DNA of 64,000 bases from Octopus vulgaris. Its lineage: Eukaryota. Position numbers and translations under genes: made by a program. Shown piece after piece: positions 2,896 through 59,560 of this stretch (positions within the stretch are counted from its first letter, which is position 1; the number at the start of each line of letters is the position of its first letter). Under the pieces are notes generated by a model, which was not told the DNA's origin, searched no databases, and saw only the letters and a program-made list of their open reading frames with translations. The stretch covers positions 135,408,001 to 135,472,000 of the forward strand of contig OX597818.1 of assembly GCA_951406725.2 (NCBI GenBank). Reading direction: 5' to 3'.

Positions 2896-3094
2896 CTCGA
2901 TACATCTGAGCAATAGCAGTGGCCGAATTCTGAAAAGCCGACCAAAGTTTTTGAGCAGCGTATTCTCTTTCTGTTTGCAATCTCTCCTCCATGTTGGGCT
3001 CAGCGTCCAATTCTTGGAGGCACTGACTCTCGAAATTGTTCAGCCAGTTCTCTCCCAGCTGATCCGATTGCTGCTGGCCTTCGTCTTGAGCCAT
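2896..3094 (-). CDS. HAPSTR1: HAPSTR1/C16orf72 (TAPR1, DUF4588) first coding exon; remaining exons not found in window
   Basis: ATG at 3094 gives MAQDEGQQQSDQLGENWLNNFESQCLQELDAEPNMEERLQTEREYAAQKLWSAFQNSATAIAQMYR, matching the HAPSTR1 N-terminal motifs (W..E.QCL.E; QKLW..FQNSATA.AQ.Y); phase-1 donor G|gtatgt at 2896/2895. Confidence 0.9.
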
Positions 3095-4815
3095 GGCAAT
3101 GAAATGAAATCTGTGCCGCCAGTATTCCGGCTTATTGTTTCGTCTCTCTCCCCTACTGTTTTTTGTTTTTGTTTTGTTGTTTTGTTTTAAAAAAATTATT
3201 ATTGTTTTTTTTTTTTTTTTGTTTTTAATCTTTTTTTGCAAGCTACAGAAAACTTTGACGAGGAAACAACTCTTTTCTCAACAGCATGATGATGATGGCG
3301 TTATACGTATATATATATATATCAATGAGAAAAGGGTGAAAGGATGGGGAAAATAAGGGGTAAGCGGGCGGTCGGTCGGTCAAAGAAATATGAAAGAAGG
3401 GCGGCGGCGGCGGCGACAACGGAGGAGATGGTGGCAGAGTAGATAATAGTTTCATACGTAATAAGGAGCGCTGCTTATTTTTTAAACGTTTACATATAAA
3501 CTGAGCGCTCATCAACTCTAATGAAGAAGAAAATAAAAAAAGCTGGAATACCGGTAAAGATTAACCAATACACAAGCGTAGTTATTAACAGTGATACGTC
3601 GTTCTTAGCTTCAAATATATAGCAGGGTAACCCAAGTAGTAGATAGATATTGGTGTATATATATATACATACATGTAGATGTATGTATGTATATGTGTTG
3701 TAGGAGACCCCTGCAATAGAAAATAGACAGAGTTTTAGTGGTGGGTTGCCTTTTTTTTTTCTCCAATTGTTATGAAAAAACTGTATGAAATAATAATAAC
3801 TAAGTTATCTTTCACGGTGGAACAATATATTGTATTATTCTCTCAATTTTTTCCCCTTCATTACACTATCTTCCGTATTGCGTTTCTTCCGTCTCCTCCA
3901 ACTTTATTCCGGAAGAACTAGCTTACGCACGCGCATCGCCTCAAAAAAAACAAAACAACAACAACAAAAAAAAGAGATATTCGCATATAGAGATACGTAT
4001 ACGTATATACAGAGAAACATAAGCGTACTCAGGCAGAGGCACACACATATACGCACGCATTCACTCCGTACGAACCGGAAACAATCAAAGGAGTTTCACT
4101 TCCTTTACAAAACAAAGACTAATGTTGTAAACACTAATAAATTTTTGGTATGAATAAAAAGAATAAACTTAATTACTGACATACGATAAAGATTTATAAT
4201 TTCTGAGAAGGTAACTGAGAAAATCGATTTTCCTCATATACATATGTGTATGTGTGTGTATGCATACATTCTCGATTTTATGAACGTCATTTACCGATTT
4301 AAATGAAATTGAATATTTAGAGATTACAGCTGTTTTCCCTAATTTATTTATAGAAATATATCATTTCAAGCATGCAAAAATTGTAACTAATTAACGGTAT
4401 TTTAGATATCACACGCGTGTATATATATATATATATATATATACATGTACACACGCACACACAAAACGGAATATTCCGATTAGCTACGATTGTTATAAAT
4501 GAACAAATGTTTGTATTATTTCTTTAAAAAGAAAAAAAAAATGATAGAATAAGCTAATATTGTCTCAAGCTTTAATACATAAAATCTGATTTAAATTTTA
4601 GCCAATGTGAGAATTGAACAATTAGGCTACTAGAGCAGGTTATCCGATCTGGTGCGACGGAATATACCGGGAAAATCCGAAAATAATCGGAGCGAATCCA
4701 ACCGAAGAACAACGACGCCAAAGCAAAAGATTACCGCCACGAAGTTGTGAAAAAATTTTTTTTTTTTTTCGTTTTTACTTGAAACCGAACGACGCTGCCT
4801 CTGGCCGCAACAGAC
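3095..4815. promoter_or_regulatory. Probable shared (bidirectional) promoter/5'UTR region between HAPSTR1 (-) and USP7 (+)
   Basis: Lies between divergent start codons; locally CpG-rich versus introns; ETS-like CCGGAA (~3909, ~4075), NRF1-like GCACGCGCAT (~3927), GGC repeats near 3400. Confidence 0.6.
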
Positions 4816-4843
4816 ATGACAGCCAAGGTCTCTCCGTCGGACG
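4816..4843 (+). CDS. USP7: USP7 putative alternative first coding exon 1a (MTAKVSPSD, phase 1)
   Basis: cagacATG followed by 9 codons and a consensus donor CG|GTGAGT in phase 1, compatible with the exon 2 acceptor; CpG-rich context. Confidence 0.55.
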
Positions 4844-4906
4844 GTGAGTATAGAGGATCGCGTATTACTAAAGCGAGCGGCTTACCCAACCTCCCCAAGC
4901 ATGGTA

Positions 4907-4919
4907 GGCGGCCATCTTG
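4907..4919 (-). promoter_or_regulatory. YY1-type motif (CAAGATGGCCGCC on - strand)
   Basis: GGCGGCCATCTTG on + strand about 60 bp downstream of the exon 1a donor. Confidence 0.45.
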
Positions 4920-5134
4920 TTTATTTTTGTTCATCTTCGACCTGGAAGTGAAGAAATAGAAGAATCCGACTTCAATCCCTCCATTCGCTTCATTTCTACC
5001 AGCTTCCAAATCAACAACAAACCTCACATTGCCTAAATAACAGTTTTTTTCTTTTTGCCTTCTGCTATATTTGTTTTTTACATATAATAATATATATATA
5101 TACACCTGTTCAATTTCAAAAAAAAATTGTCCAA

Positions 5135-5149
5135 CACACATATATATAC

Positions 5150-5200
<51 letters not shown>

Positions 5201-5361
5201 CCCTTAGTTCTCTTTCTTTCTCTCTCTCTTTCTATCTCTCTCTTTCTCTCCCTCTCTTTCTTTCACTCTCTCCTCTCTTTCACTCTTTTTCTTTCTCTCC
5301 CTCCCTCTTTCTTTCTATCTCTTTCTCTCCCTCTCTCATTCTCTCTCTCTCTCTCCCTCTC
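5135..5361. repeat. (TA)n followed by (CT)n-rich polypyrimidine tract
   Basis: Direct reading. Confidence 0.9.
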
Positions 5362-6685
5362 AACTATATTTATGTATACGAAAATATACATGTTTGTTCT
5401 TCCACCGTATGTATATATAGGTTGTCGTCCTAAACTAACAAATTACAGAGATCGTATACAACATAGCTGACCAAATTTGAGTTTTACTACGCATCTATAT
5501 AACCAGTTTTTTTTCCTTTTTTTTTTCTCTTCCTCTGCCATTGACCAAATTCTTTGCACCGATTCCTTATATTTTCTCCTAATCTAATCTTCTCCATACT
5601 TGCACACCAACCAACCAACCAACCAAAACAAGAAAAAAAAATGCCTACTTTAACCGTTGTAAGTTTCACCCTTTAATGTGGACATTATTGGCAAAATTAG
5701 TTCAGTACCTAACTGTGTGGGAAAAGCAGAAAAATCACAGAAAACATCTTTCTGATATATATTTACCATTCATTTATTTACATAGGTGTCTTATCTGGAG
5801 ACATCATCTCACACAGATATCTCCATTTGTTATTAGTTTACACACATAGCCACATACTTATACACATATATACTATATATACACTATATATATACTATAT
5901 ATAGCTGTATCTATCTATCTCTATGTGTATTTTATGTGTGGAGCAATAATAGTAGGACATTTAAGTTGATATTGCTCTCTCTTCTCTCTTCAAAGCTTTC
6001 CTCTCAAGAACATTCTTACCTTCCATAAGTATTAAGAGAACATTTTTCCAGCAACGTAGTTTATTATCCAAACTAATTCTAATACATTTGATTTATATTT
6101 ATATCTTTAACCATTGAGATTATCTCGTTATATTCTTTCCTAATTACCGTTGCAACCTGCATTTGTCTGTATTAATATTTAGTATTATTCTATTATATAA
6201 TAATTATTGACAGTATTAATTAATTTGAAAGCAAGTCATTTCTCATTAATTTTACTGTTGTTGACTGAAATTGCAAACATAAACACACCTACACTTTATA
6301 TACATAATTTGCATACCTAAAATAAACACACATAAATTCAAATTTTACACACACACACATATATATATATATCTACATATATATCCACATATCCACACAA
6401 GCACTTTATCTTTTTTCCCCTTTGCTCGGTCGATCGTTTCCCCCCATCCCCCTCCACACAGGGGGGAAACCTTTTTCATTAATTTGTTCGCCTACTTAAA
6501 AAAAAAAACTTAGCCGGGAGTGCTTTGTCCCTTCCCCCGTGGTGGAAGGGGTCTGAAATACTGCAGACATTGGGCGCATCACCAGTAAACACGTCAAAGT
6601 GACTGTGTCGCAGAAAAGTCCTTCGACTCCGAGGCGAGAACATCGCCATAAGACGGTCACTGGAGGCGCTGGCGAGGAGGACACG

Positions 6686-6797
6686 ATGAACCATGTTAAT
6701 GGCAAGACGACAGACACACAGGAGGCTGAGCAGCCACTACTGCACCACCAACAACCACAACAACAACCGCAGGATGTTGAGATGGAATCCAGAGAGG
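6686..6797 (+). CDS. USP7: USP7 exon 1 (MNHVNG...QQPQQQPQDVEMESRE)
   Basis: Resembles the human N-terminus MNH-polyQ-...EDMEME; phase-1 donor G|gttagc. Confidence 0.85.
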
Positions 6798-33371: not shown

Positions 33372-33461
33372 AAGAAACTCAACATCACGGTGATACTCCA
33401 ATGAATATTGTAAATGGTGATATTCAAGATTCAGGCAATAGAGATGAGGAAATGGAAGAAG
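33372..33461 (+). CDS. USP7: USP7 exon 2
   Basis: ttgtag|AA GAA ... EETQHHGDTPMNIVNGDIQDSGNRDEEMEE G|gtgagt; phase 1-1. Confidence 0.9.
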
Positions 33462-33574
33462 GTGAGTTCATCAGATGTCTCGTTAAGAAATGCAGAAGAT
33501 TGCGGATACTATATAAACGCTTATTACTATTTCTCACTCAGAAAGTTAACGTTATTTCCTCAATTTTGGGTCTT

Positions 33575-33888
33575 TCATCATCATCGTTTAACGTCCGTTC
33601 TCCATGCTAGCATGGGTTGGACGGTTCGAGCGGGGATCTGGGAAGCCAGGAGGCTGCACCAGGCTCCGGTCTTATCTGGCAATGTTTCTACAGCTGGATG
33701 CCCTTCCTAACGCTGACCACTCCGTGAGTGTAGTGGGTGCTTTTTACGTGCCACCTGCACTGGAGCCAGGCAAGGCTGGCATCGACCACGGTCAGATTGG
33801 TGCAATTTTACGTGCCACCTGTATGGAAGCCAGTCGAGGCGGCACTGGCTTTGGCCACGATTCGGATGGTGCTTTTTACGTGCCACCG
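33575..33888 (-). mobile_element. RTE LINE 3'-end fragment
   Basis: (CAT)n + cgtttaacgtcc...; reverse complement of the tail at 18410-18600. Confidence 0.88.
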
Positions 33889-33974
33889 CTTTTTCTGTCT
33901 ACATAAAAATTTATCTGGTTTTTATATACTAAAACTTTGTTTAAATTTCAGAAATTAAAAAAAATTGTGGTGTA

Positions 33975-34176
33975 CAAGGGGGTGCTGAAAATTTCCTGGC
34001 TTTGGATAAATGAAAATACAGAAGGATGAATTAATTATTTTATTCAACATGTCCCCTTCTCAGATTCACACACTTATTGCAGTGGTCGTTCAGTTTTTCT
34101 AAGTGCTGTAAAAGAACTTCGATGGTTGGGCCTCCAACCAGGCCATAAAGCCAGGAACTTTTCCGCACCTCCCTTG
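33975..34176. mobile_element. Tc1/mariner-type MITE
   Basis: TA|caagggggtgctgaaaatttcctggcttt ... aaagccaggaacttttccgcacctcccttg|TA. Confidence 0.8.
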
Positions 34177-34930
34177 TAACTACTATTGAGCATGCCATGT
34201 TAATTTGTGAGTACATTCACCAAATTCAATGGAGAGGAATTTTGACACCAGAGCTGATGGTATACATAGATTAAATTGTGAACACTTAGGTAAGAACAAC
34301 TAAATGGGGAAAACCCAAAATGAATGTGGTTTTATTCATATCACACGAGTGTAAGACTATCTTGTGTTTAACTGACAAATTGCGTATTCACATTAAAGAA
34401 TTAACATTTAGCCTGTTAAACTTTACAAAGAAATGCTGGTCATTAATTATTGGTATTAAAAGAGTTTTTTTAAAACTATAATTAAATAGTTGTATTTAAA
34501 TGCATTGTCTCTTAACTGCTGATCTGCAATCGCATAAACCATAAAAAATATAAAAAGTTTTGTAAAATGAAGAATAAATATTCAGTCTACTATGACTAGA
34601 AATTTATTTCCTTCAAGTGTATTTTTTAAAAATGTATTTAACACATCAATTTATTGTTGTAAACTTATGTTATCACTGCCTATTAAATGAAAATGCTGAA
34701 AAATTAAGGTTTTGTTGGTTCGTTTTGCATAGATTGTTTTTTCTCTATTTAGTGATAATATACAGGAACCCTTTTATACCAATAATTAATATACAAGAGT
34801 TCTTTCCCACTGCATAGACACTATTGGCTAGTATTTTCTGCTGTAGATGCTAGCTGACCAATGCCTTGCAAATGAATTTGACAGATGGAAGTTGTAAGAA
34901 GCCCATTATATATATATATATATATATATA

Positions 34931-35086
34931 TGAGAGGTGACCACTAAGTGGACATCCATTATGCTAGATGTAGACCCCATATGATCTGGCATTTGCTGAA
35001 TTTTGAGAACAATCTTTTCTTAGTGGTCAGACCGTATGGGGTCTACATCTAGCATAATGGATATTCACTTAGTGGTCATCGCTCTT
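34931..35086. mobile_element. Small hairpin MITE (~58-bp inverted arms) in a (TA)n tract
   Basis: gaccactaagtggacatccattatgctagatgtagaccccata pairs with tatggggtctacatctagcataatggatattcacttagtggtc. Confidence 0.85.
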
Positions 35087-35217
35087 ATATATACGTAATA
35101 TAATTTTTCTGAATCTTCAGATTTTTCAATATGTTAGGCCACTGGTTTTAAATTGATATTAATCAAATTAATATTCAATTTTTCACCCTTATTATTTAAA
35201 TTTATATATATATATAT

Positions 35218-35490
35218 ATCATCATCGTTTAACGTCCACTTTCCATGCTAGCATGGGTTGGACGGTTCAACTGGGGTCTGGCGAGCCCGAAGGCTGCACC
35301 AGGCCAGTCAGATCTGGCAGTGTTTCTACAGCTGGATGCCCTTCCTAACGCCAACCACTCCGAGAGTGTATTGGGTGATTTTATGTGCCACCGACACAGG
35401 TGCCAGACGAGGCTGGCGAACGGCCACGATCGGATGGTGTTTGTTACGTGCCCACAGCACGGAGGCCAGTCGATGCGGTACTGGCTACTG
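35218..35490 (-). mobile_element. RTE LINE 3'-end fragment
   Basis: Same tail family as the 23452 and 33575 copies. Confidence 0.85.
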
Positions 35491-36082
35491 TGAGAGTGTA
35501 GTCATCTTGTCTTGACATTTGTGCGCTGACTGAAAACATTTACATTCTATCACAAAATCATGCCTGGCCATGAAACTGTTTGTTTATTGTTCAAAGGGTG
35601 AGGGAAAATATGACCTTACTTGGAAAAGGTAAGGGTTTAAATAGAAAATCTACCTCAAATTTTGTCTGATCTATGCAAGCAAGGAATTGTAGATGTATCA
35701 ATGATTTATGATGATATGTAATTTTAAATATTGTTTAGCAAAAAATTGAAGGTATTATCACCAGTTTTAAATTATGAAACTCAGTATTCTAAATTGAAAA
35801 TGCAAATGATCCAACTTGACAATATACCAATCTGTAATTTACATATTGTGGACTAAGTATAACTTATACTATAAGCAGCAACAGCATAGAAAAATTCGCA
35901 ATATTGTGATAAAAATTCTGCTGTAAATAGATAGGGAAACACACTATATAAAAAACTACATCTCTTTAATAGTTTTCATTCTAAATTTCTTATTTCTCTT
36001 TTCTTAAATGAATTATAATTTTACTATAATTTTTTAAATGTTAAAAAAATGTTATCTTTTTTTTTCCCCCCCTTAAATATGA

Positions 36083-36193
<111 letters not shown>

Positions 36194-36417
36194 TAAGCTT
36201 TTTTAAATGTTAACTACTTTAATCAAGAGATTTCTATTTATCTTGAAATTTGATAGTAACAATCTCATTCACAGAAAAAAAGTCTGACTGGACTGCTTAA
36301 ATCTATGTATATTAAATTACATAAGTATATAAAAAAAAATTCTTTATAGAATTTAGATATTCTTTTTGTCATCAGAAAATTTCAAACAGCTATTTTTTTT
36401 TCTTCTCAAATCTGTAG

Positions 36418-36516
36418 GAAAATCATGGCAATGCCTCGCATAAATCAGCAAGCAGATAGAAATAATCAAAGAAGTTTGGGCTTTTTCTTGCAGTGTAATG
36501 CAGATTCAGATTCTGT
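36418..36516 (+). CDS. USP7: USP7 exon 4
   Basis: KIMAMPRINQQADRNNQRSLGFFLQCNADSDSV. Confidence 0.96.
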
Positions 36517-36652
36517 GTAAGTATAAATATTTAAAATTCGCTACATTGCAGGACTTTTTCATATTTTAATATTTTTCATGATCCCTTTGTGTACTTTTCT
36601 TTCTTCTATTAGAAACACAGATTCAAGAAAAACTAGATTTTATTACTTACAG

Positions 36653-36726
36653 ATCTTGGTCTTGTAATGCTGCTGCCGAACTCCGAATTTTGAATTTTTT
36701 GCCCGATGGAGAACCATTTCAGAGAA
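36653..36726 (+). CDS. USP7: USP7 exon 5
   Basis: SWSCNAAAELRILNFLPDGEPFQR. Confidence 0.95.
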
Positions 36727-36924
36727 GTAAATGTCTTGTTGTTTTTATTTTATGGTGATGATAAGCAATTTTTAATTTTCATGGATCAATTAATCATTTA
36801 TTGAAGTGTTTGTGGTTAATTTATCTACAAATTTCTGTTATTAATATATTATTAAAAAAACATATATTTACAAATATTAACTTGAGATTAGTTTATTTGT
36901 GTATGTCTAAACTATTATGAATTA

Positions 36925-37958
36925 TCAGGTTGATGCAAAAACTAGTTTTTTAGTATCAATATATCTCAAATTATTTTCATGAAAATAAGTTTTTTTCATT
37001 CTCAGAATTTTAAGGTTCTAAGCTGGTGTTTTTTGAACTGCTGCTTGGTTGTTGAAGGCCTGCAGGAAGTTAAGATGCTAGAAAAATGGTAATTGGTCAG
37101 AGAGAGGACTGGAGAGTAAGCTGGGTGAAGTAGTTTCATAGACCAGTCTGTTCAGTTTCATCAGAATCATTTGTCTGATGTGATTAGAGACTGCGATAAA
37201 GCAGGATCGTTCATTTTCCATTGACTAATATTGGGCGTAACCATTGCAGCTCCTGGTACATTTTGTGGATTTTTCTAGCAGTATTTCTCTGCTGTAATGG
37301 CTTTATCTGGATTCAAGATGTAGTGAATGATTGCACTTGCTGATGATTACCTTCTTGTCATGCTTCTTGTGTTTGATAAGTGCCTTGATCCAACCACTGT
37401 GCAGAATAGGATTAGTTGTATTCAGTCCATTTCTCATCATATATTGCAATGCAGTCACAAAATAGATTGGACTTTGTAATAATATATATTTGTTCAACTC
37501 ATAGGTATCCATTTGTCGTGGTATTTTGACATTCCATTGTGGTGCAAATATCAAACTGTTGAATGGTCAATGTTTAGTTCCTCTGAAATTTTTTAATCTT
37601 TGGTTTGGCTTTGCTTCGGCCATAAACCTCTGTTGGCCATTGGTTAATTGCAGAAAATCAGGTATGACCTTCCTTGTCTTCAAGGTTCTCCTTGCTTGCA
37701 GAAAAATTTTTAAAACCACTGTTGAACTATATTCATGGACAGTCCCCTGGCCAAATGCTTGGTTGACATTGCAAGCTGTTTCTGTTGCTTTTCAATCCTA
37801 AAATTAAAATGGGTCCATCTTCAGTTTGACTTAACAAAATGAAAAAGAATAAACAGTGAAACTAAAATCATTAACATAAATCAAATGTGCACTTCAAAAT
37901 GATATAAGCATCAAGTTTTAAAGTAATCAAAACCACAATTATTTTTGTACCAACCTCA
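36925..37958 (-). mobile_element. Decayed mariner DNA transposon
   Basis: Ends TA|tcaggttgatgcaaaaa... and ...atttttgtaccaacctca; - strand encodes HPAYSPVLSLTNYHF (YSPDLAP motif, ~37083-37127) and a frameshifted WIP(H)EL (~37490-37512). Confidence 0.85.
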
Positions 37959-38396
37959 CCTGCAATGTCTTTTTCCATTTTCCAAAGGAAAAAAAATGTA
38001 ATAGTAGAATTTTTGCCTGCAATTGTACTAATGAGTAATATTAAAATATTTTTTGAGCCTTCTAAATCATTCTTGCATTACTACTGATATTAATATCAAA
38101 TATTTTTCATTGTTTATAGTTGAAGTAGTTTTGAATAGTCTCCTGTGGTTCTTTAGTTTAGCCGGTAGCTACTATGTAATTCTGTATAACACACTTATTT
38201 CTTAAAAACATTGGGACATCACAATAAGATTCTAAGCTTCTGATTAACATATAATGATAGCTGTGGAACTCTGTTGAAGCTCAGCAGCTGCAGTAGGTGA
38301 TCAGAAGCAATTGATCAAAATGAGCAACTTGTCGAAAATTTGATTTGTGATTAATACTTTATATCTCCCTCTTACTAAAACTGTTTTCTCTTTTAG

Positions 38397-38461
38397 AAAT
38401 ACAGCATCTCTTCTATACCAAAGAGAATGATTGGGGTTTCAGTCATTTTATATCTTGGAAT
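38397..38461 (+). CDS. USP7: USP7 exon 6
   Basis: KIQHLFYTKENDWGFSHFISWN (substrate-binding DWGF motif). Confidence 0.97.
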
Positions 38462-39207
38462 GTAAGTATTTTCAATCTTCACTAGATTAACAAATCTTCA
38501 TTAATCTTAGTTGTATATCAAATTAAATGCCTAATTTATTATTTATACCACTTAATAATTAATTTCTCTTTTTGTTTAACTTTGTCTATCATCAACGGGC
38601 CTTTTTTAACCCTCTCCATACCTCTATTTAAGACTGTTTCAGCCAATTTTTTTTATCACAAAAATCTATGTATCTTACCAACAGAAACAACCTGAAAGCT
38701 GTAAATATCTTTTCTATTTTTTACCAAGTCTAAATATGTAATCCTCCACTCAGTATTGTGGTCTGTCAAAGCATAATTGATTTATTGTAGCAGCTAATTT
38801 AGGGAAACTGTAGATGTTAATCAGAGCCACTTAATGGACATTTAATATCAACATAGTTAATTTTCATTTGGCACTTTTATTGGAAATTATCTAGACAGTT
38901 TTTGCTGAGGTTAATCTTGCCATGTTATTTAGTCTTAATCCTCTCTCTCTTTCTCTCTCTCTCTCTCTATCTCTTCTCTCTCTCTCTCTCTCTCTGTTAT
39001 TGGCTGGTTTCTATGGAGATAAAACTTTAATTAGATACAGTGTTGAGATTGAAGTCTTGTTCCATTGATAGACTTAATGTGCAATTAATGCTAGATTGTC
39101 ATTTGTTGTTCACTTTGAAATTGTTGGACAGCTTCTAGGGTTTCAGTCTATGGTCAATGCATTTCATTCACAATCTTTGTAGAACTTGTGTATTAATCTA
39201 TTTCCAG

Positions 39208-39296
39208 GAACTATTAGCACCAGAAAGCGGGTATGTCCAAGATGATAAAGTTATTATTGAAGTCAAAATGGTTGCAGATGCCCCTCATGGTGTCAG
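39208..39296 (+). CDS. USP7: USP7 exon 7
   Basis: ELLAPESGYVQDDKVIIEVKMVADAPHGVS. Confidence 0.96.
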
Positions 39297-40327
39297 GTAA
39301 TTACATTTTACCTCTCTCTCATATGGTTTTGTGTATGTGTGTGTGAAAAGGCAGCAAATTGGCAGTTTTTACAGCATTATATAGAATGTCGTGACATAAT
39401 TGCTCTGGCTCTGTGCATTATCAGTTCAATTCCTGGTGAAGTGAATTTTGTCTTTCATCCTTTTGGGACTGATTTTTAAAAAAAACATCTAGAGCAGTGG
39501 GTTTTCAGAGTTGCTTAAGCACCATAAAGAATACCTTGTATCTTTCCAGCTTGTTTCATCCTGGCAGAATTATCTGCAATGATTGTGAATACCAAACTGT
39601 ATTGGCCCTTAACTTTCCTTTGGACATCATCTGTGATGTTCAGAGGAAAGACTTGGATGATGCTGGTTTTCCACATGAAAAACTTTTCCTCACATATATT
39701 AAAGAATTGATATGTAGCAAAAAGGGGGCAATTTTTATACTTCAGTTTAGTTTTCACAGTATACAAAACAGATTAACCTAACTTCATCAACATCCGTTTT
39801 TCATGCTGGCATAGGTTGAACAGCTTGACAAGAGCTAACAAACCGAAGGACTGCACTAGATTTCACTGTGTTTTGGCATGAATTTTACAGCTGGATGCCC
39901 TTGCTAATGCCAACCACTTTAACATTCTTAAATTTTTAAGTGATGAAAAAATATTTTATTAAATTACTCAACAATAGCAGTTAAGTTGTGATACTGTTGT
40001 TTTCCATGACTTTTGTGTTCTAACAACTACTAGTTATTGTGTAATACAATTAGACTATTTTCCTGCTCTCTAAAATGGTATTTAATCAATGTGTCTTAAC
40101 TAAAGTGCTCAGTGTAAATCTTCTGGTAATACTTGCCTTAAACTAACATACCTAAGAAATAATGTCTCTTAGATTTTAATATTCTGCAAACTGCTATACT
40201 CCCAAGTTTGCTCTTCTTTCACTGTCATAATAACAAACATCCTTCCCAAATGAAAGGTTTTTCTTTTAGCATATTATGTCTTTCTTTCTTTTTTTAACTG
40301 AAAGAACATCTTTCTAATAAAATCTGA

Positions 40328-40522
<195 letters not shown>

Positions 40523-40618
40523 TAAAATCCTATTAATTTGCTGTAATTACCAAATATTCTAGGGGCTCTTTAAGTTAAAATCAATAAATTCTTCAAAATT
40601 TTGAGTAAATTTGTTTCA

Positions 40619-43035
<2,417 letters not shown>

Positions 43036-43089
43036 TAAAAAATTTTACATTAGAAATAAAATCTTATAGTAATCTACACTATTTTGTAA

Positions 43090-43209
<120 letters not shown>

Positions 43210-44077
43210 TAATGTAGTTATATTAATTTTTGTTCCTTTTTTGCCAATGATTTTATACATTTTTTTGTGTGTATGTTTCCAATAAGTTAATGGAATTATA
43301 TTAGTCTAGTTGTTGGTTCTTGAACATATATTTAACAAAAAGAAGAAAAAAGGGTTTATCTGCTATATTTCGTTTATAAATATTCTGTCTAGTGAACCTT
43401 TGTATTAATTCTGTTACTGCAAGCATCTGAAGAATTTTGTTTTTGAAATAATGATTCCTTTGGAAAATAGATTTCTTTTGACTTGATGTTTTGCTAGATT
43501 TGTATGAAATTGGGTATAGTTTAAATTAGCTCTATTATGTTATTGGTACATTTGTCTCTTGATCCCAGGAGGGAAAAAAGAGGTGAGGTTGAACCATGCT
43601 GTGATTTGAGCCTAAGAGATAGAAAGTCTAAGGTATTTAGTTCACTAATGTATTGTTTCTCCAATTTTGTCCTTTCCAAAGTATTAAAATTACAAATATC
43701 TTAACAAGCCATAAACATGTTAAAATTTTTCGTTTACTAACAGAATAGGGAAATATTTGACATGGAAATGAAGCTGGTCATTGAACATTTGTTTCAATAA
43801 AGTAACAGTTTTTAGTCTTTTAAATCATTGAAAGATTTGATTTTAATTACAATAATTGGGGGTGGGGAGTTAAGAAATGTAACATGAAATAACTATATTT
43901 TATTTCATTCTTGAACAAAATGAAACAATTTAGTTGCTTCTAATGATAGGGAATTTAAATGAATTTTAATATTTGAATAATGTCAGCATTCTTGGAAATT
44001 AAATTGCTATTTTTTCTTTTTTTATAAAACTACAATTTTCTGATCCACACATATAGTAAACATTTAATGTACATTAA

Positions 44078-44254
<177 letters not shown>

Positions 44255-44525
44255 TAACAATGTACATTGACTTTAGGTGAATCAATCATAGCCAGATTAG
44301 TGAATATTCTGGACATTGTTGATTGAATCACATGAAAACAACAGTTTTTACCTTTTTCCTTTAATTAACAATCTGCAAGACCCCCAGAAGTGTTAGGTGT
44401 AGCCTAGCTTTTACAGCATTACACAACTGGTACTATCTTTTTATGAAAGTGGAATGGAGGTAATTTACATTTAACACTTAACAGTGGTGCATTTACCAAC
44501 TACAAGATATTTATTGACATGTAAA

Positions 44526-44895
44526 TCTTTATATATAAAAGTCAAGTTGTGTGTCTGTCTCCTACGATTTAGATTCCTAACTACTCCCACATTTTGCAGT
44601 GCAGTTTAACCAAAACCGGGTATCTTATAGTCGTGATTCATATCAAGCCCTTCTGGGTATTAGCATGAGTCTACGATTTTAAAAATAATTTACCATTTTT
44701 TTCCATTTTAATGCATTTTTCGCTATTATATAAGGGAAGTAACTCTCTAAAAATGTCTACGATGAGTCAACGATTTTTAAAAAAATTTACCATCATTTTT
44801 TTCCATTTTTTTGCTATTTTTTGGCTATAACCCTCTAAAAATGCTTTATAGTTATTTCCCTTACAAACCCGAGCAACGATGGGCGATACAGCTTG
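44526..44895 (+). mobile_element. Non-autonomous Helitron-like element
   Basis: A|TCTTTATATATAAAA 5' end, tgtgtgtctgtct, 3' GC-rich hairpin cccgagcaacgatggg then CTTG|T (degenerate CTAG|T); no TSD. Confidence 0.65.
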
Positions 44896-45219
44896 TGAAG
44901 AATAAATTATCTTTGCCAGGAACGGCCTTGAAGACAAAATATACACTTCTCACATGTTAATCAATTAACAGCCTTATAGTATAGTAATTGCCTTTCTCCA
45001 GACAATTCTTATGTTTTGAAACAAACCTGTTTTAAAGCAATCTAAATTGATACATTCTATCAAAATTGCGTGTTAAATTGCTCTGAACACCACTTTAATA
45101 ATGAGTTATTTTACTAAATTCTTCATGATTCTTTTTTCAAAAGTAACTGAAACAGCAGTTTATTTTAACAGTTATGTGGAAGAAAGAGGGTTAAACTTAA
45201 TGCATGCTGGTTAGTTTGA

Positions 45220-45405
<186 letters not shown>

Positions 45406-45500
45406 TAAAGAAAAGTGCCACAATTTGTGCTGCTCTTAAACTAATATTGTTGGTTTCTTCATTTCCTTGTCATACTTGACGTTCTAATTTGTTATTTTAA

Positions 45501-45721
45501 CCCTTTAGTGTTTGCATTATTCTGCCAAAATTAATCCTTTTTTATCCAAATTGTTTTGAACTAATCATGCATTGTTTTGTAGCTATGAGATTTTGATGAG
45601 GTAGCTGTTAATTTTTAAAACGATATTGTAGGGTTGGTGTAAGAGACCAGATCTGGCCAGTTTGAACATAAAACAGGCAGAATACTTTTGGCCGGATATG
45701 GCCAGTTTATACACTAAAGGG
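45501..45721 (+). mobile_element. TTAA-specific MITE subfamily 1
   Basis: TTAA|CCCTTTAGTGT ... ACACTAAAGGG|TTAA. Confidence 0.85.
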
Positions 45722-46194
45722 TTAATGTGATCTTTATTAGAACTCTATTTACATTGTGGAAAAAATTTTCAAACAAATCAGACATTTACTAATATTTTTC
45801 TCTCATCTTTTGTGATACAACATGATTCTTAAATGATGTATAAGTCAATTTTTCTGATAAGTTTAACGCGAGACACAATGGTCTTGAACAAGAATCTTAA
45901 CCGTTTTTATTAAATTCAGTATAATTCTACAATTTCTGAGTTGTATTTGTCTAGAAAATGACTTGATCCAAGATGATATTTTGAAACTGAAGCAGTTGTA
46001 GTGGGGTTGTTAAAATTTACTTTTCAGTTTCTGTTGCACAATTGCGACCTGGTTCACTGATACAGTTCTGCAATAGTTTGAAATTTTGTTATGACCTCCT
46101 CTGATAGATCTCAAAATTGACTTTGTGGTTTGAATGGTTGAAATGACTCTTCCATGATGTAATTTCTAACTTTTTCTTTCGCATTTTCTTTTAA

Positions 46195-46416
<222 letters not shown>

Positions 46417-46457
46417 TAACCTGGTGTTTGTAGGGTGGGATAGGATGTAGCTTAGAC

Positions 46458-46704
46458 TAGTAGTTCTCAACCAGTTTTCGCCAATAAACTCCTTTTGATT
46501 ATTATTTTACTCAAGTGTATCTTCATAGCCATTTGATGTTTTAAAAAAATCTTGTATTTTTATAATTAAATATCATAAGGAATTGTATTAAAAAAAAAAG
46601 ATATTTTATATATTGAAGTAGAATCAATTTATTACATATGAATCTTAACAATTTTGGTGCATATGAACCCCGAGGGTCATATGGGCCCCAGTTGAGAACC
46701 ACTA
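46458..46704. mobile_element. hAT (Charlie-like) MITE
   Basis: TIRs tagtagttctcaac / gttgagaaccacta; 8-bp TSD gcttagac / gtttagac. Confidence 0.8.
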
Positions 46705-48204
46705 GTTTAGACAGGAAGAAGTGCAGTATCCAGGTTCTGTGAAACAATGACTGGAGTAGAAACCACAATTAGTTGGTTGCTGCAGTAGGATGCTGTATAC
46801 TAAAATATCTAGTTATCCTGGAACTGTGGATGCAACAGGAGTGTGTTAAGGATAGCTGAGAACTGGATTTTTGTGAGAAAATTGTTGTTTTGACTCAGTA
46901 AGTTCTACTTACATCAATACAATTTGTAATGGTCATTTCATGCAATATCTCTTTCTCCCTTTTTTTATATTTTCTCTTTCTCACTCTATTCAAAGTAAAA
47001 GGTAATGACCATATCCTTCACAGGCTTTCTGAGAGATGTGAGATTGATGTCATTATTCATTTCACTTAAAATTGTTAGTAAATCACTGCAGAAAAAAATT
47101 GTGCAAAGAGGGAATTCGCTAAGACTGATGTTCTGGCAGGATTGGGTTTAAGTGGTTAATACAAAGGCCTGGGAGGTTGGACACAGCATAGGTGACGGAG
47201 GGAAAAAAAGAGAGAGTCAGGTGTGCTTGAGGATGGTATGAAACCAAAAAGGTAGGCTATTATAGTGGAAGAAGCAAAGAGAACTAGAAGTTGGGGAATG
47301 TCTGTGACTAGAGTAACTGTTAAAAAGAAAATATAGGCAATGAATGTCAATCATTCAGTTGATTGAACCAATAATTGAATGAAATAATGTAGATAGTGGT
47401 TGATCACAGACATATGTAACATAAACAAAATCCTCAGAGACAATCAGTGACAACAATGTGAAAAGGCCAGAACTTTGGATTGCACGAACAATTCATCTGA
47501 TAGGACTAGAGGTTGGGAAATGTCTGTGAGTGACTTTATGCCAATCAGTCAGGTGTTACTTTTAGGAATGCATTCTAAGATGTCTTTGTATATGTATAGG
47601 AGCAGTATCACCATCTCATTTTGAGCTTTGTGGATAGTTAGTAGCTGTAAGTGAACCAAAATGAGTTGTTAATAAGACTGTATAGATAAAGTAGCTGTTA
47701 ATGAGACTGGAAAAGCCAGTCTTTAAAATGTGATCTTGACTGATACGGATGCAAGTTCACCAGAAGTGATCCTCTGATAGTAAGATCTATCATTTCAAGT
47801 GGCCTTATGAAGTCTAGTTGTACTCTGTTCGTGTTTACATTATTATGGCTACATATTCTACACCTGTATGGAGTAACATGTATGTTCTCAGATTTAGCTT
47901 TCCTTATCCACTTGGACTTTCATACTTCAATCTTTTATGAGAAAAGTACAAAGGCACAAATTGTCGAAAAGTCATGTATCATCGAACATAACGATTTTCC
48001 TGGCCAGTTGTAAAATTTGTTTAAGTGAAACACATAAATATAGCACCGATATCAGGATCAAACATTCTACTGGCCATGTCTATCATTTTCATGAAAATGG
48101 TTAATATTAAAAGAGAACAAATAAAGGTTATGGTAGCTAGCTAAATTTATTCTGTGTGAATATTATAATGAAAAAATCATATTCCTTTTCTTTTTTTTTT
48201 TTAG

Positions 48205-48315
<111 letters not shown>

Positions 48316-48342
48316 TGAGTTATTTTCAGATTTATCATTAAA

Positions 48343-48732
48343 GTTTAGTTAGTTAGTTAGTTAATTTGGCTCAAAAGCAAATAGCAAGGCCATGTAGGGG
48401 GACATGGAGTTAAGTACAGGGTGGTGTTCATGTAAAGAGTTCAGGCCACTTGAGGTCAAGGGAGGCTTTGAACAAAGCGGTCGTCAGCATCTTCACCATC
48501 TCGTCTGGCAGCTTGTTCCACGGATCCGCAACCCGGACGGAGAAAGCTCCTCTCCTTCGATTGAGATGAAATCGTCGCAGGTAGAGCTTTTCGGAATGAC
48601 CCCGCAGCCGACGCTCTGGAGCAGGAGTGAAGAACAGCTCTTTCGAGAGGTTACACTTTCCGCTAATGATGTTGTGGGCGAGAATGAGATCACCACGGTG
48701 GCGGCGTTTTTCAAGAGTTTCTTCAAATATTG
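48343..48732 (-). mobile_element. CR1-type LINE 3' end with (TAAC)n tail
   Basis: - strand frame reads RRGAFSVRVADPWNKLPDEMVKMLTTALFKASLD (CR1 ORF2 C-terminal WN.LP motif); gttagttagttag tail. Confidence 0.8.
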
Positions 48733-49636
48733 AACACTGGATTTGATGTGGAGGAATATGGAGATTGGCTCCAAGTGTAAAACAAGAAAAAGCAAAACTG
48801 TCTTAATTGTATTTCTCAGTCAATCCAAGGCTTGGATCAGCTATGAAATTCAGTTTGTAGAAATTGCAAAAACCTATCAGCTGAATTGTTTGTGTAATCC
48901 AAAGTTCTGACCTTTTTCACATTGTTGTCACATTGTGTCACTGATTGTCTCTGAGGATTTCGTTAATGTTACATGTCTGTGATCAACCAATATCTACATT
49001 ATTTCATTCAGTTGATTGAATGACTAACATTCATTACCTATATTTTCTTTTTAACAGTTACTCATATCTAATTGTATAAAGTACTTTTACTTTCTTTGCA
49101 ACAAAGGCATTTTTTCTTTGATATAAAAGTTGACCGTCGAATATGCCAAGATTTTACAAACTGTTATCGAAGTCATAAATAATGGACTACCAGCACATAA
49201 GATAAAAAATAGTAGTGTGGTCTTTATTTTTCTCAATGAAAAATATCATTATCAACATCCTCATTTAACATCCACTTGTCAATGCTTGCATGGGTTACAC
49301 AGAATTTATTGAGGCAGAATTTCTACAGCTGGATATCCTTCCTGTCAACCCTCACCTGTTTCCAGGCAATGAAATATTTCTCAATTTCAAGTCATGTTCT
49401 TCAAGTAAAACTAGAAACATTTTAAATCATTATAGGCTGTTAAGTCAAGAGTACAAACACATATACATGCACATTCACACAAACACACACATGACAAGCT
49501 TCTGTTAGTTTGTTTACCAAATCCCTTTTAATGGCTTTCACCAGCCTGGTGGCTATTGTAGAAGACACATGGTAATGCACAGTGGAACTGAGTCCTTCTC
49601 TTAAAAATGCTTGATCACTACATAGTAGTAGTAAAA

Positions 49637-49798
49637 CTACTCGCAATACCAGAGGGCGCACACTCTCCTACCCTGATGTACTCTCCAGGATACAGGCATC
49701 CAGCAACAGGACCTCCGTAATGCTATGATGGACCGTGAAGTCTGGCGTAACATAGTAAATTCCAATGTCTCGACCACGGTCGAACAATGATGATGATG
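49637..49798 (+). mobile_element. Second RTE-like LINE 3' fragment with (TGA)n tail and TSD
   Basis: Encodes ...DLRNAMMDREVWRNIV; agtagtaaaa on both flanks. Confidence 0.7.
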
Positions 49799-49890
49799 AG
49801 TAGTAAAATTTGAACTAAAGCTGAAATTTAATTCTCCATTTTCTAAGCATAGTTTCTACAAATACAAATCTATGTCTAACACTGTAATGA

Positions 49891-50169
<279 letters not shown>

Positions 50170-50265
50170 TGAATGGAAACATTTACACATTATGTAAACA
50201 TCCTCTATTATAGTTATTTTCTGAAATGATTTATAGGAATATAGTTAAGTTCAATGCAATGTTGA

Positions 50266-50520
<255 letters not shown>

Positions 50521-51022
50521 TAAATAATTGATAAATTTATCTAAAAATGCAATGCTCCCTTGCTACTGATATTTTGAAATATATAACTGCCATTTTAAAA
50601 TGGCCATATTGGAAAAATTAATAAATTTTGCTCAATGTGCAAAGAATTTTTAATGGCTTAACATAACTTTAATATGAACTTCACATAAATGTTAACAGTA
50701 ATTAACTTACTTCTGCTAACTGAAACAGGGTTTTAGAAGGTTGCCTCAGCATATTTGTATGATGGGAACATTTCTGCTTTCCACAAGAGCATTAGTGTCA
50801 TTGAGTCTTGGGATCCTGTTTTCTGCTCTGCTGCTCATCTATTTACATTTAGCGTAAATTGTGTTAATTTGCAAGGTAGAATTCTTTAAACTGATCCTTA
50901 TCGTAATTATGACATGCTGTTATTAGCTCTCTCGAATGCAACTGCATATGAATAACTGTTGTTAACAATGTAATGTTCTTCTGAAGAATTTTACAACAGT
51001 ATATATGTATATTCTTTTACAG

Positions 51023-51092
51023 AAGATGTATTACAACCAGTGAGTGAGATAGACATTCCAGAAGGTTTAAAGAACAGATTAGCAGAAGAAAG
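51023..51092 (+). CDS. USP7: USP7 exon 17
   Basis: EDVLQPVSEIDIPEGLKNRLAEER. Confidence 0.95.
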
Positions 51093-51592
51093 GTTTGTAT
51101 TTACATTTGTTTTTACTTGTATGTCAGTTTTTTTCAGGTTCTTTTACAATGTGAAACCACCAGTTCACTTTGAATTTTATCAAACCATTTATTTTTAAGA
51201 TAACCTGATCTTTTCACAGTAACTTTTATTTTTAGCTCTTGAAATATACATTGTCTTTTGACAATTATATCTAGCTTGATATTTTTCCACTGGTTTTAGT
51301 TATATGATCTGCAGCCATTCTGGGGCACTACCTTCATGGGTCTCAATCAATTATATTGATTCTAATAGTTAAGTTTGGAGCTTGTTCTATTGAACTGCTC
51401 AGTCATGCTTTGACATAAAAATGTGCAACTCAGCAGTTTTACACCAGTAAAAACACATAGATGATGAGTTTCTGTGCATTTGTGATCTTTCATATTTCAT
51501 TTGCAAGGTATTGGTCATCCTGAGGCTACAGTAGAAGATATTGGTCAAGGTACCAGATTGTGAGATTGAACCTGGAATCACACAATTGTTAA

Positions 51593-51961
51593 AATAATAA
51601 TAATAATAAAACATTGTGTACAGTGCTCAGGTGCACTACAACTCATCTAAAGTGTATATATAATCAGGTGTAGTTTCAGCGGATTTCGGAAAGCATGAGG
51701 GCCTTAAAGGATGCAGTGTCAAGGCAGTCAACAACTGACGCAGGCAGTTTGTTCCATGCTTCAGCAACTCTGAGCGTGAAAAAATGTTTCCGAAAGTCAT
51801 GGGAGCTGTGTTGTTTTCTGACTTTGTAGGCATGTCCATGTGTGTTAGACACATGGAGATCAAAAAGGTGTTCAGTGTTGTTGTTGGTGAGGTGGTTGAT
51901 AACTTTGTGGGTGTTTACCAAGTCCGTCGCCAGACGCCGGAGCTTCAGTGAATCCATGCCC
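51593..51961 (-). mobile_element. CR1-type LINE 3' end with (TTA)n tail
   Basis: ORF 51676-51957 LKLRRLATDL...THGHAYK...FFTLRVAEAWNKLP...FK. Confidence 0.88.
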
Positions 51962-53671
51962 CTTATTTAACATTTTAATTGTACATGAATTGTTGCATAT
52001 TACTGAAACTGTTTTTATCATTACTTTCAAGGGGGCAAACTGGCAGAATTATTAGCATGCCAGATAAAACACTTAGAGGCATTTTGTCTATCTTTACAAA
52101 ATGCCACAAAGTTCTCTAGGGTTGATAACATGCTAATTGAGCACGGGATTCAATGTATTTGACTACTTTTTAAAGAACAGCATTAATTAGTTTGATGATG
52201 ATTCTCCAACTATGTTGGAAGTAATAATCTTTTAATGGCAACTCAAGCAGCTTTTGGTATCATGTGAAGATTAAAAAAGCATTGTCACATTGCAAGTTAC
52301 ATAATGTGACTAACTACTAAATTTCATATGTCACTTAAGAAAGACTTCAGAGGAATTTGTGGGCAACCTACTACCAGCTAATTATATTATTTCTGTTTTC
52401 TCTATGTTAATGTAAGCCATTAAATTAGAGGAAATGTTTATTTCATAATTTACTTTAGACAAAATTTTCAGATGCTGTTTTAACTATTTTTCAAGAGATG
52501 AAAATCATTTGAAATATATATTTTCTAGGTGCATTTGTTTTCTTACTTATCATACTAATAAACTGATATAAAATTTTAAATTTTATGGAATCTTTGTAAA
52601 ATAATAAAACTTTGTAAACTAATAAAACACCGTCCAACCCATGCTAGCATGGAGAACGGACGTTAAATGATGATGATGATATTATAATTACAGGTAAAAT
52701 CTGAAATGTATTACATGGTTTAATGTCTGTCATATGTTGCAAAGTACTATGTCTCCACTGTTAATGTATGGAGAACTTGAATTAGAATAAACAAAAGTAA
52801 AGTCATTGGGTTTGACTGAATGGGTCTAGTTTCCTCTGAACATTTTGGAAGATATATTTTAAGTGTTCACTCCATTCGCCTTTGTTGAAATGATCACTAC
52901 ATGCTATACTGCATTCAAAATCAAGTCCCATGTCTCTATTTCTAAATCTGCCCTAGTCATTGTTTTATATTTGCTTCTCCAAACTAGTATATATTGAACA
53001 GATTTCTCAAAGGTATTGTTTTATAGTTAAGTGCCCTTCTTGTTGCTACCCCTTTTCCTTCCTATTATGCCACACAGCAATGCAGTGTACTTATTTTAAA
53101 ACTAGGATACATGGTTTAACCTAATATGATTCTTTTAAGAAAATTGTAGATAGTTATAGAATATAAACAGAATTTCGAAAAAAATTGTCCAAAAATTTCA
53201 AAAAGCACAAAATTTACATCCATAATTGTTGAACAATTATAGATGTAAATGGTGAGTAATCTTGGATGCTTTAAATATTGCACACTGGTGGTTGGGTTGG
53301 TAACAAACTAGTTATACATTGTGATTTTCAGAATCATCCACTCAATACCAATATGAAAAATCACTGTGACAGGGTAGGGACATATTCATATTAAGTCACC
53401 ATCATACTCATGTATTATATTTTTGGATTATTTTTAATCTAAAATTATCATCACTGTATATATTACTGCTGTATTTGCTATTGGATTGACAGTGATAATT
53501 ATATTAAAATAATATTTGCATGTTATAATGGTCTCTTATTTGTAGTGAATAAGATAACCATTTAGTACATATGTTTATCAATGTTAATTGGTTCAAATAC
53601 ATATTTGAAACCAATAATTATATCTTCATATCTCTGTGCACCAATGTCTGACAGTTAATGGAATGCTTTTA

Positions 53672-53892
53672 CCCTTTAGTGTTCAGATTACTCTGTTAAA
53701 TGTAATACTTTTTCACTCAAATTGTTTTGAATTAATCATGCATTATCTTACAGCTTTGAGGTTTCAATGATGTGATTGTTTATTTTTAGAATGTCAATGT
53801 AGGTTAGGTGTGAGAGGCTAGATATGGCCAGTTTGAATATAAAACATGTAGAATATATTGGGCCGGATTTGGCCGGTTTAAACACTAATGGG
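53672..53892 (+). mobile_element. TTAA-specific MITE subfamily 1
   Basis: TTTA|CCCTTTAGTGTT ... AACACTAATGGG|TTAA. Confidence 0.82.
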
Positions 53893-53967
53893 TTAATTAC
53901 TGCAATTTACACATGTATATTTTCAACAAAAACTACAGCTGAATTAGTTGTTTTAAATGCATTCTAA

Positions 53968-54147
<180 letters not shown>

Positions 54148-56599: not shown

Positions 56600-56663
56600 A
56601 GTCTTTAAAGTTAAAAAAACAGCTACACTAATGGAATTCATGGAAATGTTATCAGAAAATTTA
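56600..56663 (+). CDS. USP7: USP7 exon 19
   Basis: VFKVKKTATLMEFMEMLSENL. Confidence 0.94.

Positions 56664-59380: not shown

Positions 59381-59560
<180 letters not shown>

What the first reader, a model, noticed from the sequence alone, without database searches (positions are those of the whole stretch)
2896..6797. HAPSTR1 (C16orf72) and USP7 head-to-head across a compact shared promoter: a candidate ancient enzyme-substrate gene pair
Seen: a HAPSTR1-type first exon on the - strand (ATG 3094) faces USP7 on the + strand (ATGs at 4816 and 6686), only 1.7-3.6 kb apart across CpG-richer DNA. Established, from recall: in human, USP7 and C16orf72/HAPSTR1 are divergently oriented neighbours on 16p13.2, much further apart; HAPSTR1 is a HUWE1 cofactor in stress/p53 signalling and has been reported to be stabilised by USP7. 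Inference: the linkage may predate the protostome-deuterostome split and be kept because a bidirectional promoter co-regulates a deubiquitinase and its substrate. I do not know of this being described for molluscs.
Basis: partly seen in the sequence, partly recalled or inferred. Interest (0 to 1): 0.85.

Follow-up and report, generated by a model that had tools for sequence, protein, structure and literature searches.

The report
Ancient USP7–HAPSTR1 gene pair in octopus
In this octopus genome the gene for the ubiquitin-removing enzyme USP7 sits head-to-head with the gene for HAPSTR1, a protein it stabilises in human cells; the pair is already catalogued as ancient, and the short stretch between them likely acts as a shared promoter.

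Summary
An intact, single-locus, four-exon HAPSTR1 gene starts at 3094 (−). An intact USP7 gene faces it with two alternative first coding exons (ATG 4816 and ATG 6686). The 1,721 bases between the ATGs lie in the most CpG-rich 2 kb of 264 kb examined.

The linkage is ancient, but that is already in print. USP7=C16orf72 is row 24 of 52 ancient, head-to-head, highly co-expressed human pairs, conserved in 4 of 8 non-vertebrate species (PMC7530604 Table S2, from Irimia 2012). Human work shows USP7 binds and stabilises HAPSTR1.

Added here: identifiers of the two genes lie within 3 of each other in 15 of 28 species compared (cephalopods, gastropods, bivalves, a brachiopod, a centipede). The pair looks broken in ticks, Daphnia, a hemichordate and some clams. 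Two neighbours known from other animals lie on other contigs in this genome.

A shared promoter is likely but unshown: no start sites, octopus expression or octopus binding data were obtained. That the enzyme-substrate link is why the pair persists is untested. A side finding: a protostome-wide USP7 N-terminal extension has no AUG in its exon.

The parts
2896..3094 (-). HAPSTR1 coding exon 1 (66 codons + 1 base, phase-1 donor). Exons 2-4 lie outside the window, 29-37 kb to the left (G000:C5 about 135370870-135378810).
   Evidence: Pfam PF15251 E 5.9e-14; genome search; tblastn and splice sites
3095..4815 (.). Region between the two start codons: both 5' UTRs and the inferred shared promoter. 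CpG clusters at about 3300-3600, 3800-4100 and 4600-5000. No other gene found.
   Evidence: CpG o/e 1.44, GC 34%; CpG profile; 0 Rfam matches; 0 Pfam matches for the 4 ORFs tested
3900..4080 (.). Central CpG cluster with two CCGGAA (ETS-type) sites and one NRF1-like site; candidate core of the shared promoter (inferred)
   Evidence: Motif scan with recalled consensus patterns. The enrichment is not independent of the CpG excess.
4816..4843 (+). USP7 first coding exon 1a (MTAKVSPSD + 1 base, donor GTGAGT). An alternative donor extends it to 4903.
   Evidence: Public isoforms P0270-P0273 start here; MTAKV isoforms in abalone, limpet, mussel and ark shell; splice sites
6563..6685 (+). In-frame conserved N-terminal extension upstream of ATG 6686 (ADIGRITSKHVKVTVS...). 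There is no ATG in 6300-6685 and an in-frame stop at 6554-6556. It is reached either by splicing from exon 1a (CAG acceptor ending at 6566, phase 1) or by a non-AUG start such as ATT 6569.
   Evidence: Same motif in mollusc, spider and insect USP7 models; frame and ATG check
6686..6797 (+). USP7 alternative first coding exon 1b (MNHVNG..., phase-1 donor GTTAGC)
   Evidence: P0269 residues 1-37 match at 100%; MNHV start shared by most protostome USP7 hits
33372..61451 (+). USP7 internal exons in the window: MATH domain, catalytic domain (Cys box at 40391, His box at 50047, Asp motif at 50281) and UBL region. The gene ends at about 72950, beyond the window.
   Evidence: tblastn; PDB USP7 E 2e-21; Pfam architecture

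Best explanation
This locus is the octopus copy of the USP7–HAPSTR1 head-to-head gene pair, which is already catalogued as ancient and co-expressed in human, and the two genes likely fire from one shared, likely unmethylated promoter region, which would tie production of the deubiquitinase to that of a protein it stabilises in human cells. Shown here: both genes are intact, single-locus and divergent, with no gene found between them; the intergenic DNA keeps its CpGs while the USP7 gene body is depleted; the HAPSTR1-facing USP7 exon (MTAKV) is conserved across three mollusc classes. Taken from papers: the ancient linkage, human co-expression, binding and stabilisation. Inferred: the CpG pattern reflects an unmethylated promoter; one set of elements drives both directions; a break inside this region would damage two dosage-sensitive housekeeping genes at once, which keeps the pair together; octopus USP7 acts on octopus HAPSTR1. 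Lineages that rewired either promoter could separate the genes, which fits the repeated losses.
For: Gene anatomy. CpG peak. Published catalogue entry: head-to-head, among the most co-expressed, 4 of 8 non-vertebrate species (PMC7530604). Identifier gap of 3 or less in 15 of 28 species, including a 162-kb Lingula scaffold. Consecutive Lingula genes g28375/g28376 and a shared Xenopus block in PMC8851819. In M. edulis the order HAPSTR1, USP7 N-terminal half, USP7 C-terminal half puts USP7's 5' end next to HAPSTR1. The only matches to the families of a Lingula neighbour (IMD) and a vertebrate neighbour (PMM) lie on contigs C9 and C24 here, so the pair stayed together without them. Human biochemistry: PMC10921065, PMC11148184 and PMC9225015.
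Against: No transcription start site was mapped. The ATGs are 1,721 bases apart, so the usual under-1-kb criterion is untested, and the CpGs form three clusters that could be separate promoters. USP7 seems to have a second start region near 6.5 kb, so part of its output may not come from the shared region. The pair looks broken in two Dermacentor ticks (different chromosomes), Dreissena and Mactra (gaps of 5935 and 101), Ptychodera (other genes on both sides of USP7), a Daphnia-like contig and a clam contig. No strongly conserved USP7-docking motif was found in HAPSTR1 (best [PAE]xxS column 48 of 110; KxxxK at most 3 of 110). The human genes are over 100 kb apart (recalled, not checked), so a compact promoter cannot be the constraint there.
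Confidence: 0.6

Rival explanations
1. The linkage is ancient and the promoter region is shared or overlapping, but the enzyme-substrate relation is incidental. It is one of many housekeeping head-to-head pairs that persist only because breaks in a short promoter region are harmful.
For: The rows of the co-regulated list that I read include pairs with no functional link known to me (my judgement). 5'-5' pairs are generally the best conserved (PMC3514665). The pair was lost repeatedly while both genes were kept. USP7 has many substrates (established knowledge).
Against: In human, USP7 is the second-ranked co-essential gene of HAPSTR1, binds it and controls its stability. That is unlikely for a random neighbour, although genomic proximity could inflate co-essentiality (my inference).
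Confidence: 0.25
2. The two genes have independent promoters and stay linked through shared distal enhancers or a chromatin boundary, as must be the case in human if the genes are far apart.
For: Three separate CpG clusters; a second USP7 first exon 1.9 kb further on; a long human intergenic distance (recalled) together with high human co-expression.
Against: The region is compact, with no other gene or RNA family found. The CpG peak is centred between the two first exons.
Confidence: 0.12
3. The octopus and vertebrate linkages arose independently, or the identifier adjacency is an artefact.
For: The three-gene-block survey files the Lingula and Xenopus cases in two separate 'novel' blocks. 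Amphioxus, annelids and cnidarians could not be checked here. Identifier order is only a proxy: O. sinensis shows a gap of 976 on the same chromosome.
Against: Near-consecutive identifiers in 15 species from three phyla; shared small scaffolds in Lingula and M. coruscus; the published pair survey gives a false-discovery rate under 0.0002 for pairs kept in four or more lineages.
Confidence: 0.03

Closest known systems
USP7=C16orf72 conserved ancestral microsyntenic pair (Irimia et al. 2012, PMC3514665; row 24 of Table S2 in Touceda-Suárez et al. 2020, PMC7530604)
   Same: The same two genes, head-to-head, listed as ancient (4 of 8 non-vertebrate species) and among the most co-expressed pairs in human.
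   Different: In the parts I read it is a table row only, with no functional comment. I could not decode which four species carry it. The biochemical link between the two proteins was published later.
Human USP7–HAPSTR1–HUWE1–TRIP12 pathway (PMC10921065, PMC11148184, PMC9271168, PMC9225015)
   Same: Orthologous proteins. The octopus HAPSTR1 keeps the HUWE1-binding motif (one L-to-M change) and a basic C-terminus. USP7 keeps its domains and catalytic residues.
   Different: In the passages I read, adjacency is discussed only as co-amplification in tumours and in copy-number variants, not as an ancient arrangement. The interaction is untested in molluscs. The human genes are much further apart (recalled).
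Functionally linked ancient bidirectional pairs such as HSPD1–HSPE1 and HADHA–HADHB (PMC3514665)
   Same: Non-paralogous head-to-head neighbours whose products act together, with occasional lineage losses.
   Different: Those encode subunits of one complex, and HSPD1–HSPE1 has a shown bidirectional promoter under 1 kb. Here the relation is enzyme to substrate and the promoter is not mapped.

Membership tests
HAPSTR1 / TAPR1 (PF15251) | Pfam match above cut-off; full-length intact gene | tested here: met
   Exon 1 scores 52.9 bits (cut-off 27). The identical 254-aa protein scores E 1.1e-71. All 10 clusters looked up from the exon-3 search hold the family name.
HAPSTR1 / TAPR1 (PF15251) | HUWE1-binding motif F-x2-AA-x5-LY[KRT]-x(12 or 16)-G | tested here: met
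   Read by eye: residues 78-107 of P0016 fit the motif of PMC9271168, with M in place of L.
USP7 (peptidase C19) | MATH, catalytic, UBL and C-terminal domains, with Cys, His and Asp motifs | tested here: met
   Pfam architecture; catalytic motifs located in window exons; all 12 PDB hits are USP7; single locus by PF12436.
Conserved ancestral microsyntenic pair | Non-paralogous neighbours, at most 4 genes apart, in at least 4 major lineages | tested here: met
   Direct in this genome; by identifier proxy in molluscs, a brachiopod and a centipede; vertebrates from papers; published entry.
Conserved ancestral microsyntenic pair | Orientation conserved across species | tested here: inconclusive
   Head-to-head here, and in human by the table's definition. 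M. edulis model order puts USP7's 5' end towards HAPSTR1. No coordinates for other species.
Bidirectional promoter | Divergent genes with no gene between them | tested here: met
Bidirectional promoter | Transcription starts under 1 kb apart | tested here: inconclusive
   The ATGs are 1,721 bases apart; transcription starts were not mapped.
Bidirectional promoter | CpG-retaining (unmethylated) promoter DNA | tested here: met
   CpG o/e 1.44 against 0.35 in the USP7 gene body. This is a sequence proxy, not a methylation measurement.
Bidirectional promoter | Shared elements drive both directions; co-expression in this species | not testable with these tools
   Needs reporter assays and expression atlases. 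Human co-expression comes from PMC7530604.
USP7 substrate | Conserved MATH-docking ([PAE]xxS) or UBL-docking (KxxxK) motif in HAPSTR1 | tested here: inconclusive
   Best [PAE]xxS column 48 of 110 homologues; KxxxK at most 3 of 110. Patterns are recalled, and the human docking site is not given in the passages read.
USP7 substrate | Binding and stabilisation in this species | not testable with these tools
   Shown for the human proteins only.

The most novel reading that the evidence does not exclude
The pair is a bilaterian-age genetic dosage circuit. One promoter co-produces HAPSTR1 and a dedicated USP7 isoform (the MTAKV first exon that faces HAPSTR1) to set nuclear HUWE1 activity. A second USP7 promoter makes a longer isoform whose protostome-wide N-terminal extension starts at a non-AUG (AUU) codon. 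Lineages that split the pair had to rewire this control.
Probability: 0.15. Interest if true: 0.7.

Novelty: already known. Interest (0 to 1): 0.38.

Why it matters
Gene-order surveys listed this pair as ancient and co-expressed before the two proteins were known to act together. The biochemical papers I read do not mention its age. Joining the two makes it a test case for whether ancient gene neighbourhoods are kept because their products regulate each other. The octopus locus is useful because the candidate shared promoter is under 2 kb, and lineages that kept or lost the pair give natural controls. For human genetics, it suggests that 16p13.2 gains and losses change a co-evolved enzyme-substrate dose, not two unrelated genes. 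The linkage itself is not a discovery.

Tried and rejected
RNA evidence: the run search gave 'no RNA holder listed' and no reads were laid, so start sites, splicing of exon 1a to 1b and expression stay open.

Complex prediction: the USP7 MATH domain (P0269 66-212) with Argonauta HAPSTR1 gave no verdict (score 0.00, controls not run). This says nothing for or against binding.

Metagenome contigs: none of 26 HAPSTR1 loci gave a tblastn hit with 18 USP7 queries. Only 9 had 1 kb or more upstream, and several are intronless transcripts. I counted only those where another gene occupies the upstream position.

Supplements: Irimia 2012's could not be read, and the species order of code 00111001 was not in the parts read, so I cannot say whether a mollusc is among the four species. 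No hits for the gene names in the supplements of PMC6292497 or PMC8809688, nor in the main text of PMC13508932. The PMC8851819 table is cut in storage, so absent species are not evidence.

Coverage gap: USP7 identifiers for amphioxus, annelids, echinoderms and cnidarians were not among my hits, so these groups are unchecked.

Rejected: a larger conserved block (IMD and PMM families on other contigs; the next gene found after USP7 is a beta-tubulin); a pseudogene or paralogue reading (intact, single locus); promoter-motif enrichment as independent evidence (it follows from the CpG excess; two of the four CCGGAA counts are one palindromic site).

Earlier scan notes: none on this pair.
Full report
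1. Observation. On the − strand an ATG at 3094 opens 66 codons that end at a phase-1 GTATGT donor and match Pfam PF15251 at E 5.9e-14. A genome-wide search found 3 matches to the family, all in this gene. tblastn placed exons 2, 3 and 4 at about 29, 35 and 37 kb left of the window. The four exons are 100% identical to a 254-aa Octopus HAPSTR1, and exon 3 is 97% identical to Argonauta, so the organism is an octopus. On the + strand, segments covering 1012 of 1111 residues of a public Octopus USP7 run in order from 6686 to 72950, with the Cys, His and Asp motifs in window exons. The domain architecture is canonical, all 12 PDB hits are USP7, and all 3 genome-wide PF12436 matches are in the window.

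2. The two USP7 starts. Public isoforms begin at 4816 (MTAKVSPSD, with donors after 4843 or 4903) or at 6686 (MNHVNG), each spliced to the exon at 33372. Some of these models may derive from this same assembly; identical O. sinensis RefSeq entries are separate support. MTAKV isoforms occur in abalone, limpet, mussel and ark shell, so the exon that faces HAPSTR1 is itself conserved across three mollusc classes.

3. The region between them. The 1,721 bases between the ATGs are 34% GC with CpG o/e 1.44, against 0.35 in window 10-64 kb and 0.46 over 264 kb. Window 3001-5000 has the highest ratio of the 2-kb windows examined. This fits an unmethylated promoter beside a methylated gene body (established for invertebrates; methylation not measured). 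The CpGs fall in three clusters. The middle one holds two CCGGAA sites and an NRF1-like site (recalled patterns; not independent of the CpG excess). No Rfam family and no Pfam match in 4 ORFs was found. Transcription starts were not mapped.

4. Other animals. Without coordinates, I compared identifiers and contig lengths of the two orthologues in the 28 species for which my searches returned both (gaps computed for 24 of them; Strigamia, Mercenaria and the two ticks were read from the listings). In 15 of 28 the gap is 3 or less: Argonauta, O. bimaculoides, two Haliotis, two Patella, four Mytilus, Tegillarca, Potamilus, Sinanodonta, Lingula (162-kb scaffold) and the centipede Strigamia (T1J1R8/T1J1R9). 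In 4 the genes share a contig with RefSeq gaps of 16-976 (O. sinensis, H. asinina, H. rubra, M. californianus); these are undecided and show that RefSeq gaps do not prove separation. In 5 they share a chromosome with gaps of 101-5935 (Dreissena, Mactra, Mya, Ischnura, Hetaerina). Mercenaria shares a chromosome but its identifiers are not comparable. In 3 the contigs differ (two Dermacentor, Ladona). The sample is mollusc-heavy because of my queries. In M. edulis the models run HAPSTR1, USP7 N-terminal half, USP7 C-terminal half, which puts USP7's 5' end next to HAPSTR1. Among 26 metagenome loci none hit USP7. A clam contig has a Kazal-domain exon upstream and a Daphnia-like contig a tRNA-synthetase-like exon (weak Pfam match, E 0.007). 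In PMC8851819's table, Lingula USP7 and C16orf72 are consecutive genes, the Xenopus genes share a block, and Ptychodera USP7 is flanked by SDR42E1 and FUCA1. In this octopus the IMD family (a Lingula neighbour) and PMM family (a vertebrate neighbour) match only on contigs C9 and C24, and a beta-tubulin follows USP7. The pattern is an ancestral pair with several losses.

5. What is in print. [quoted passage not shown] Row 24 is USP7=C16orf72, conserved in 4 of 8 non-vertebrate species. PMC3514665 (passages and section 12; supplement unreadable) does not name the pair in its main text. PMC11148184 (passages): USP7 lies directly adjacent to C16orf72 in human, is co-amplified with it and co-immunoprecipitates with it. 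PMC10921065 (passages): USP7 promotes HAPSTR1 stability; my term search showed no mention of adjacency. PMC9225015 (passages) nominates it as a USP7 substrate. PMC9271168 (passages) gives the HUWE1-binding motif. PMC11050503 and PMC11654436 (passages) show the linkage in chicken and cattle. PMC9834230, PMC12045569 and PMC13508932 (passages) added nothing on the pair. Searches for C16orf72 + USP7 + head-to-head and for cephalopod + microsynteny + USP7 returned 0 papers. In the listings, and in the papers opened from them, I saw none that ties the ancient linkage to the enzyme-substrate relation. The library lacks most subscription journals, and supplements I could not see may name the octopus or limpet case.

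6. Mechanism. Most likely (0.6) both genes start from one shared CpG-retaining region. That would couple their output and make breaks costly, and the coupling would suit a pathway in which HAPSTR1 levels are tightly titrated by USP7, HUWE1 and TRIP12. Ancient ancestry of the linkage is near certain. The shared promoter is inferred, and the causal role of the enzyme-substrate relation is untested. Against a simple story: repeated losses, a second USP7 first exon, no strongly conserved docking motif, and a long human intergenic distance (recalled). Rivals are generic housekeeping-pair inertia (0.25), independent promoters with shared distal control (0.12) and convergence or artefact (0.03).

7. 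Side finding. Upstream of ATG 6686 the frame stays open back to a stop at 6554-6556, and there is no ATG in 6300-6685. The peptide there, ADIGRITSKHVKVTVS, recurs at the start of USP7 models from squid-like transcripts, two bivalves, a spider, a mayfly, a dragonfly, a wasp, an ant and unnamed transcripts (12 of the 13 proteins I chose for alignment because they showed an extension; the 13th starts just after it). Conservation begins sharply at [DE]-I-G. A phase-1 CAG acceptor ending at 6566 would join exon 1a in frame, as one Tegillarca model does, but it has no pyrimidine tract, and none of the other MTAKV isoforms I saw includes this exon. Alternatively ATT at 6569, in the same CAGAC context as ATG 4816, starts a 39-residue extension. 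One paper search returned 3 papers; the one opened does not describe a USP7 extension.

8. Verdict. The feature is real and the ancestry claim is right, but the pair is already catalogued. The added value is the synthesis with later biochemistry, a compact and testable locus, a first map of losses, and the unexplained extension. Interest 0.38.

Noticed in passing
window 6563-6685 (+): Protostome-wide USP7 N-terminal extension ([DE]IGRIxSKHVKVTVS) in frame with ATG 6686, with no ATG in its exon; candidate non-AUG (ATT 6569) start or weak acceptor. A 7-bp hairpin (CCCTTCC/GGAAGGG, read by eye) lies just upstream at about 6529-6550.
   Followed up: partly
P0062, P0104, P0108, P0290, P0295, P0296 (Dreissena, Mercenaria, Mya, Mactra USP7): None of the listed USP7 isoforms of the clams in which the pair looks separated starts with MTAKV. 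Loss of the linkage may go with loss of the HAPSTR1-facing exon. Few isoforms were seen, and the linked unionid clams showed none either.
   Followed up: no
window 4907-4918 (+): YY1-type motif (GCCATCTT, recalled consensus) just after the alternative USP7 donor at 4903.
   Followed up: partly
window about 3243-3930 (−): A possible 5' UTR intron in HAPSTR1 (donor-like GTAAGC near 3926, acceptor-like site near 3243, read by eye) would move its start to within about 1 kb of USP7's.
   Followed up: no
window 41524-42432 (−): piggyBac-like transposase remnant in a USP7 intron (recognised by recall). The M. edulis USP7 model P0077 is also fused to a transposase domain (PF13843).
   Followed up: no
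window 16886-17930 (+), 48431-48802 (−), 51679-51966 (−): Broken LINE-type reverse-transcriptase fragments in USP7 introns (recognised by recall).
   Followed up: no
L017:610-3401 (−), about 22 kb past the end of USP7: Beta-tubulin gene, convergent with USP7; a CpG-rich region at window-relative 109-118 kb may be its promoter region.
   Followed up: partly
L032 and L033 about 1900-2300 (−): In termite-associated contigs another divergent coding exon lies upstream of HAPSTR1 (no Pfam match; resembles LENG1 by recall), so HAPSTR1 seems to have gained a new head-to-head partner.
   Followed up: partly
P0005 (Branchiostoma belcheri HAPSTR1, 356 aa): The model carries an internal duplication of the central region; possibly an assembly artefact.
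   Followed up: no
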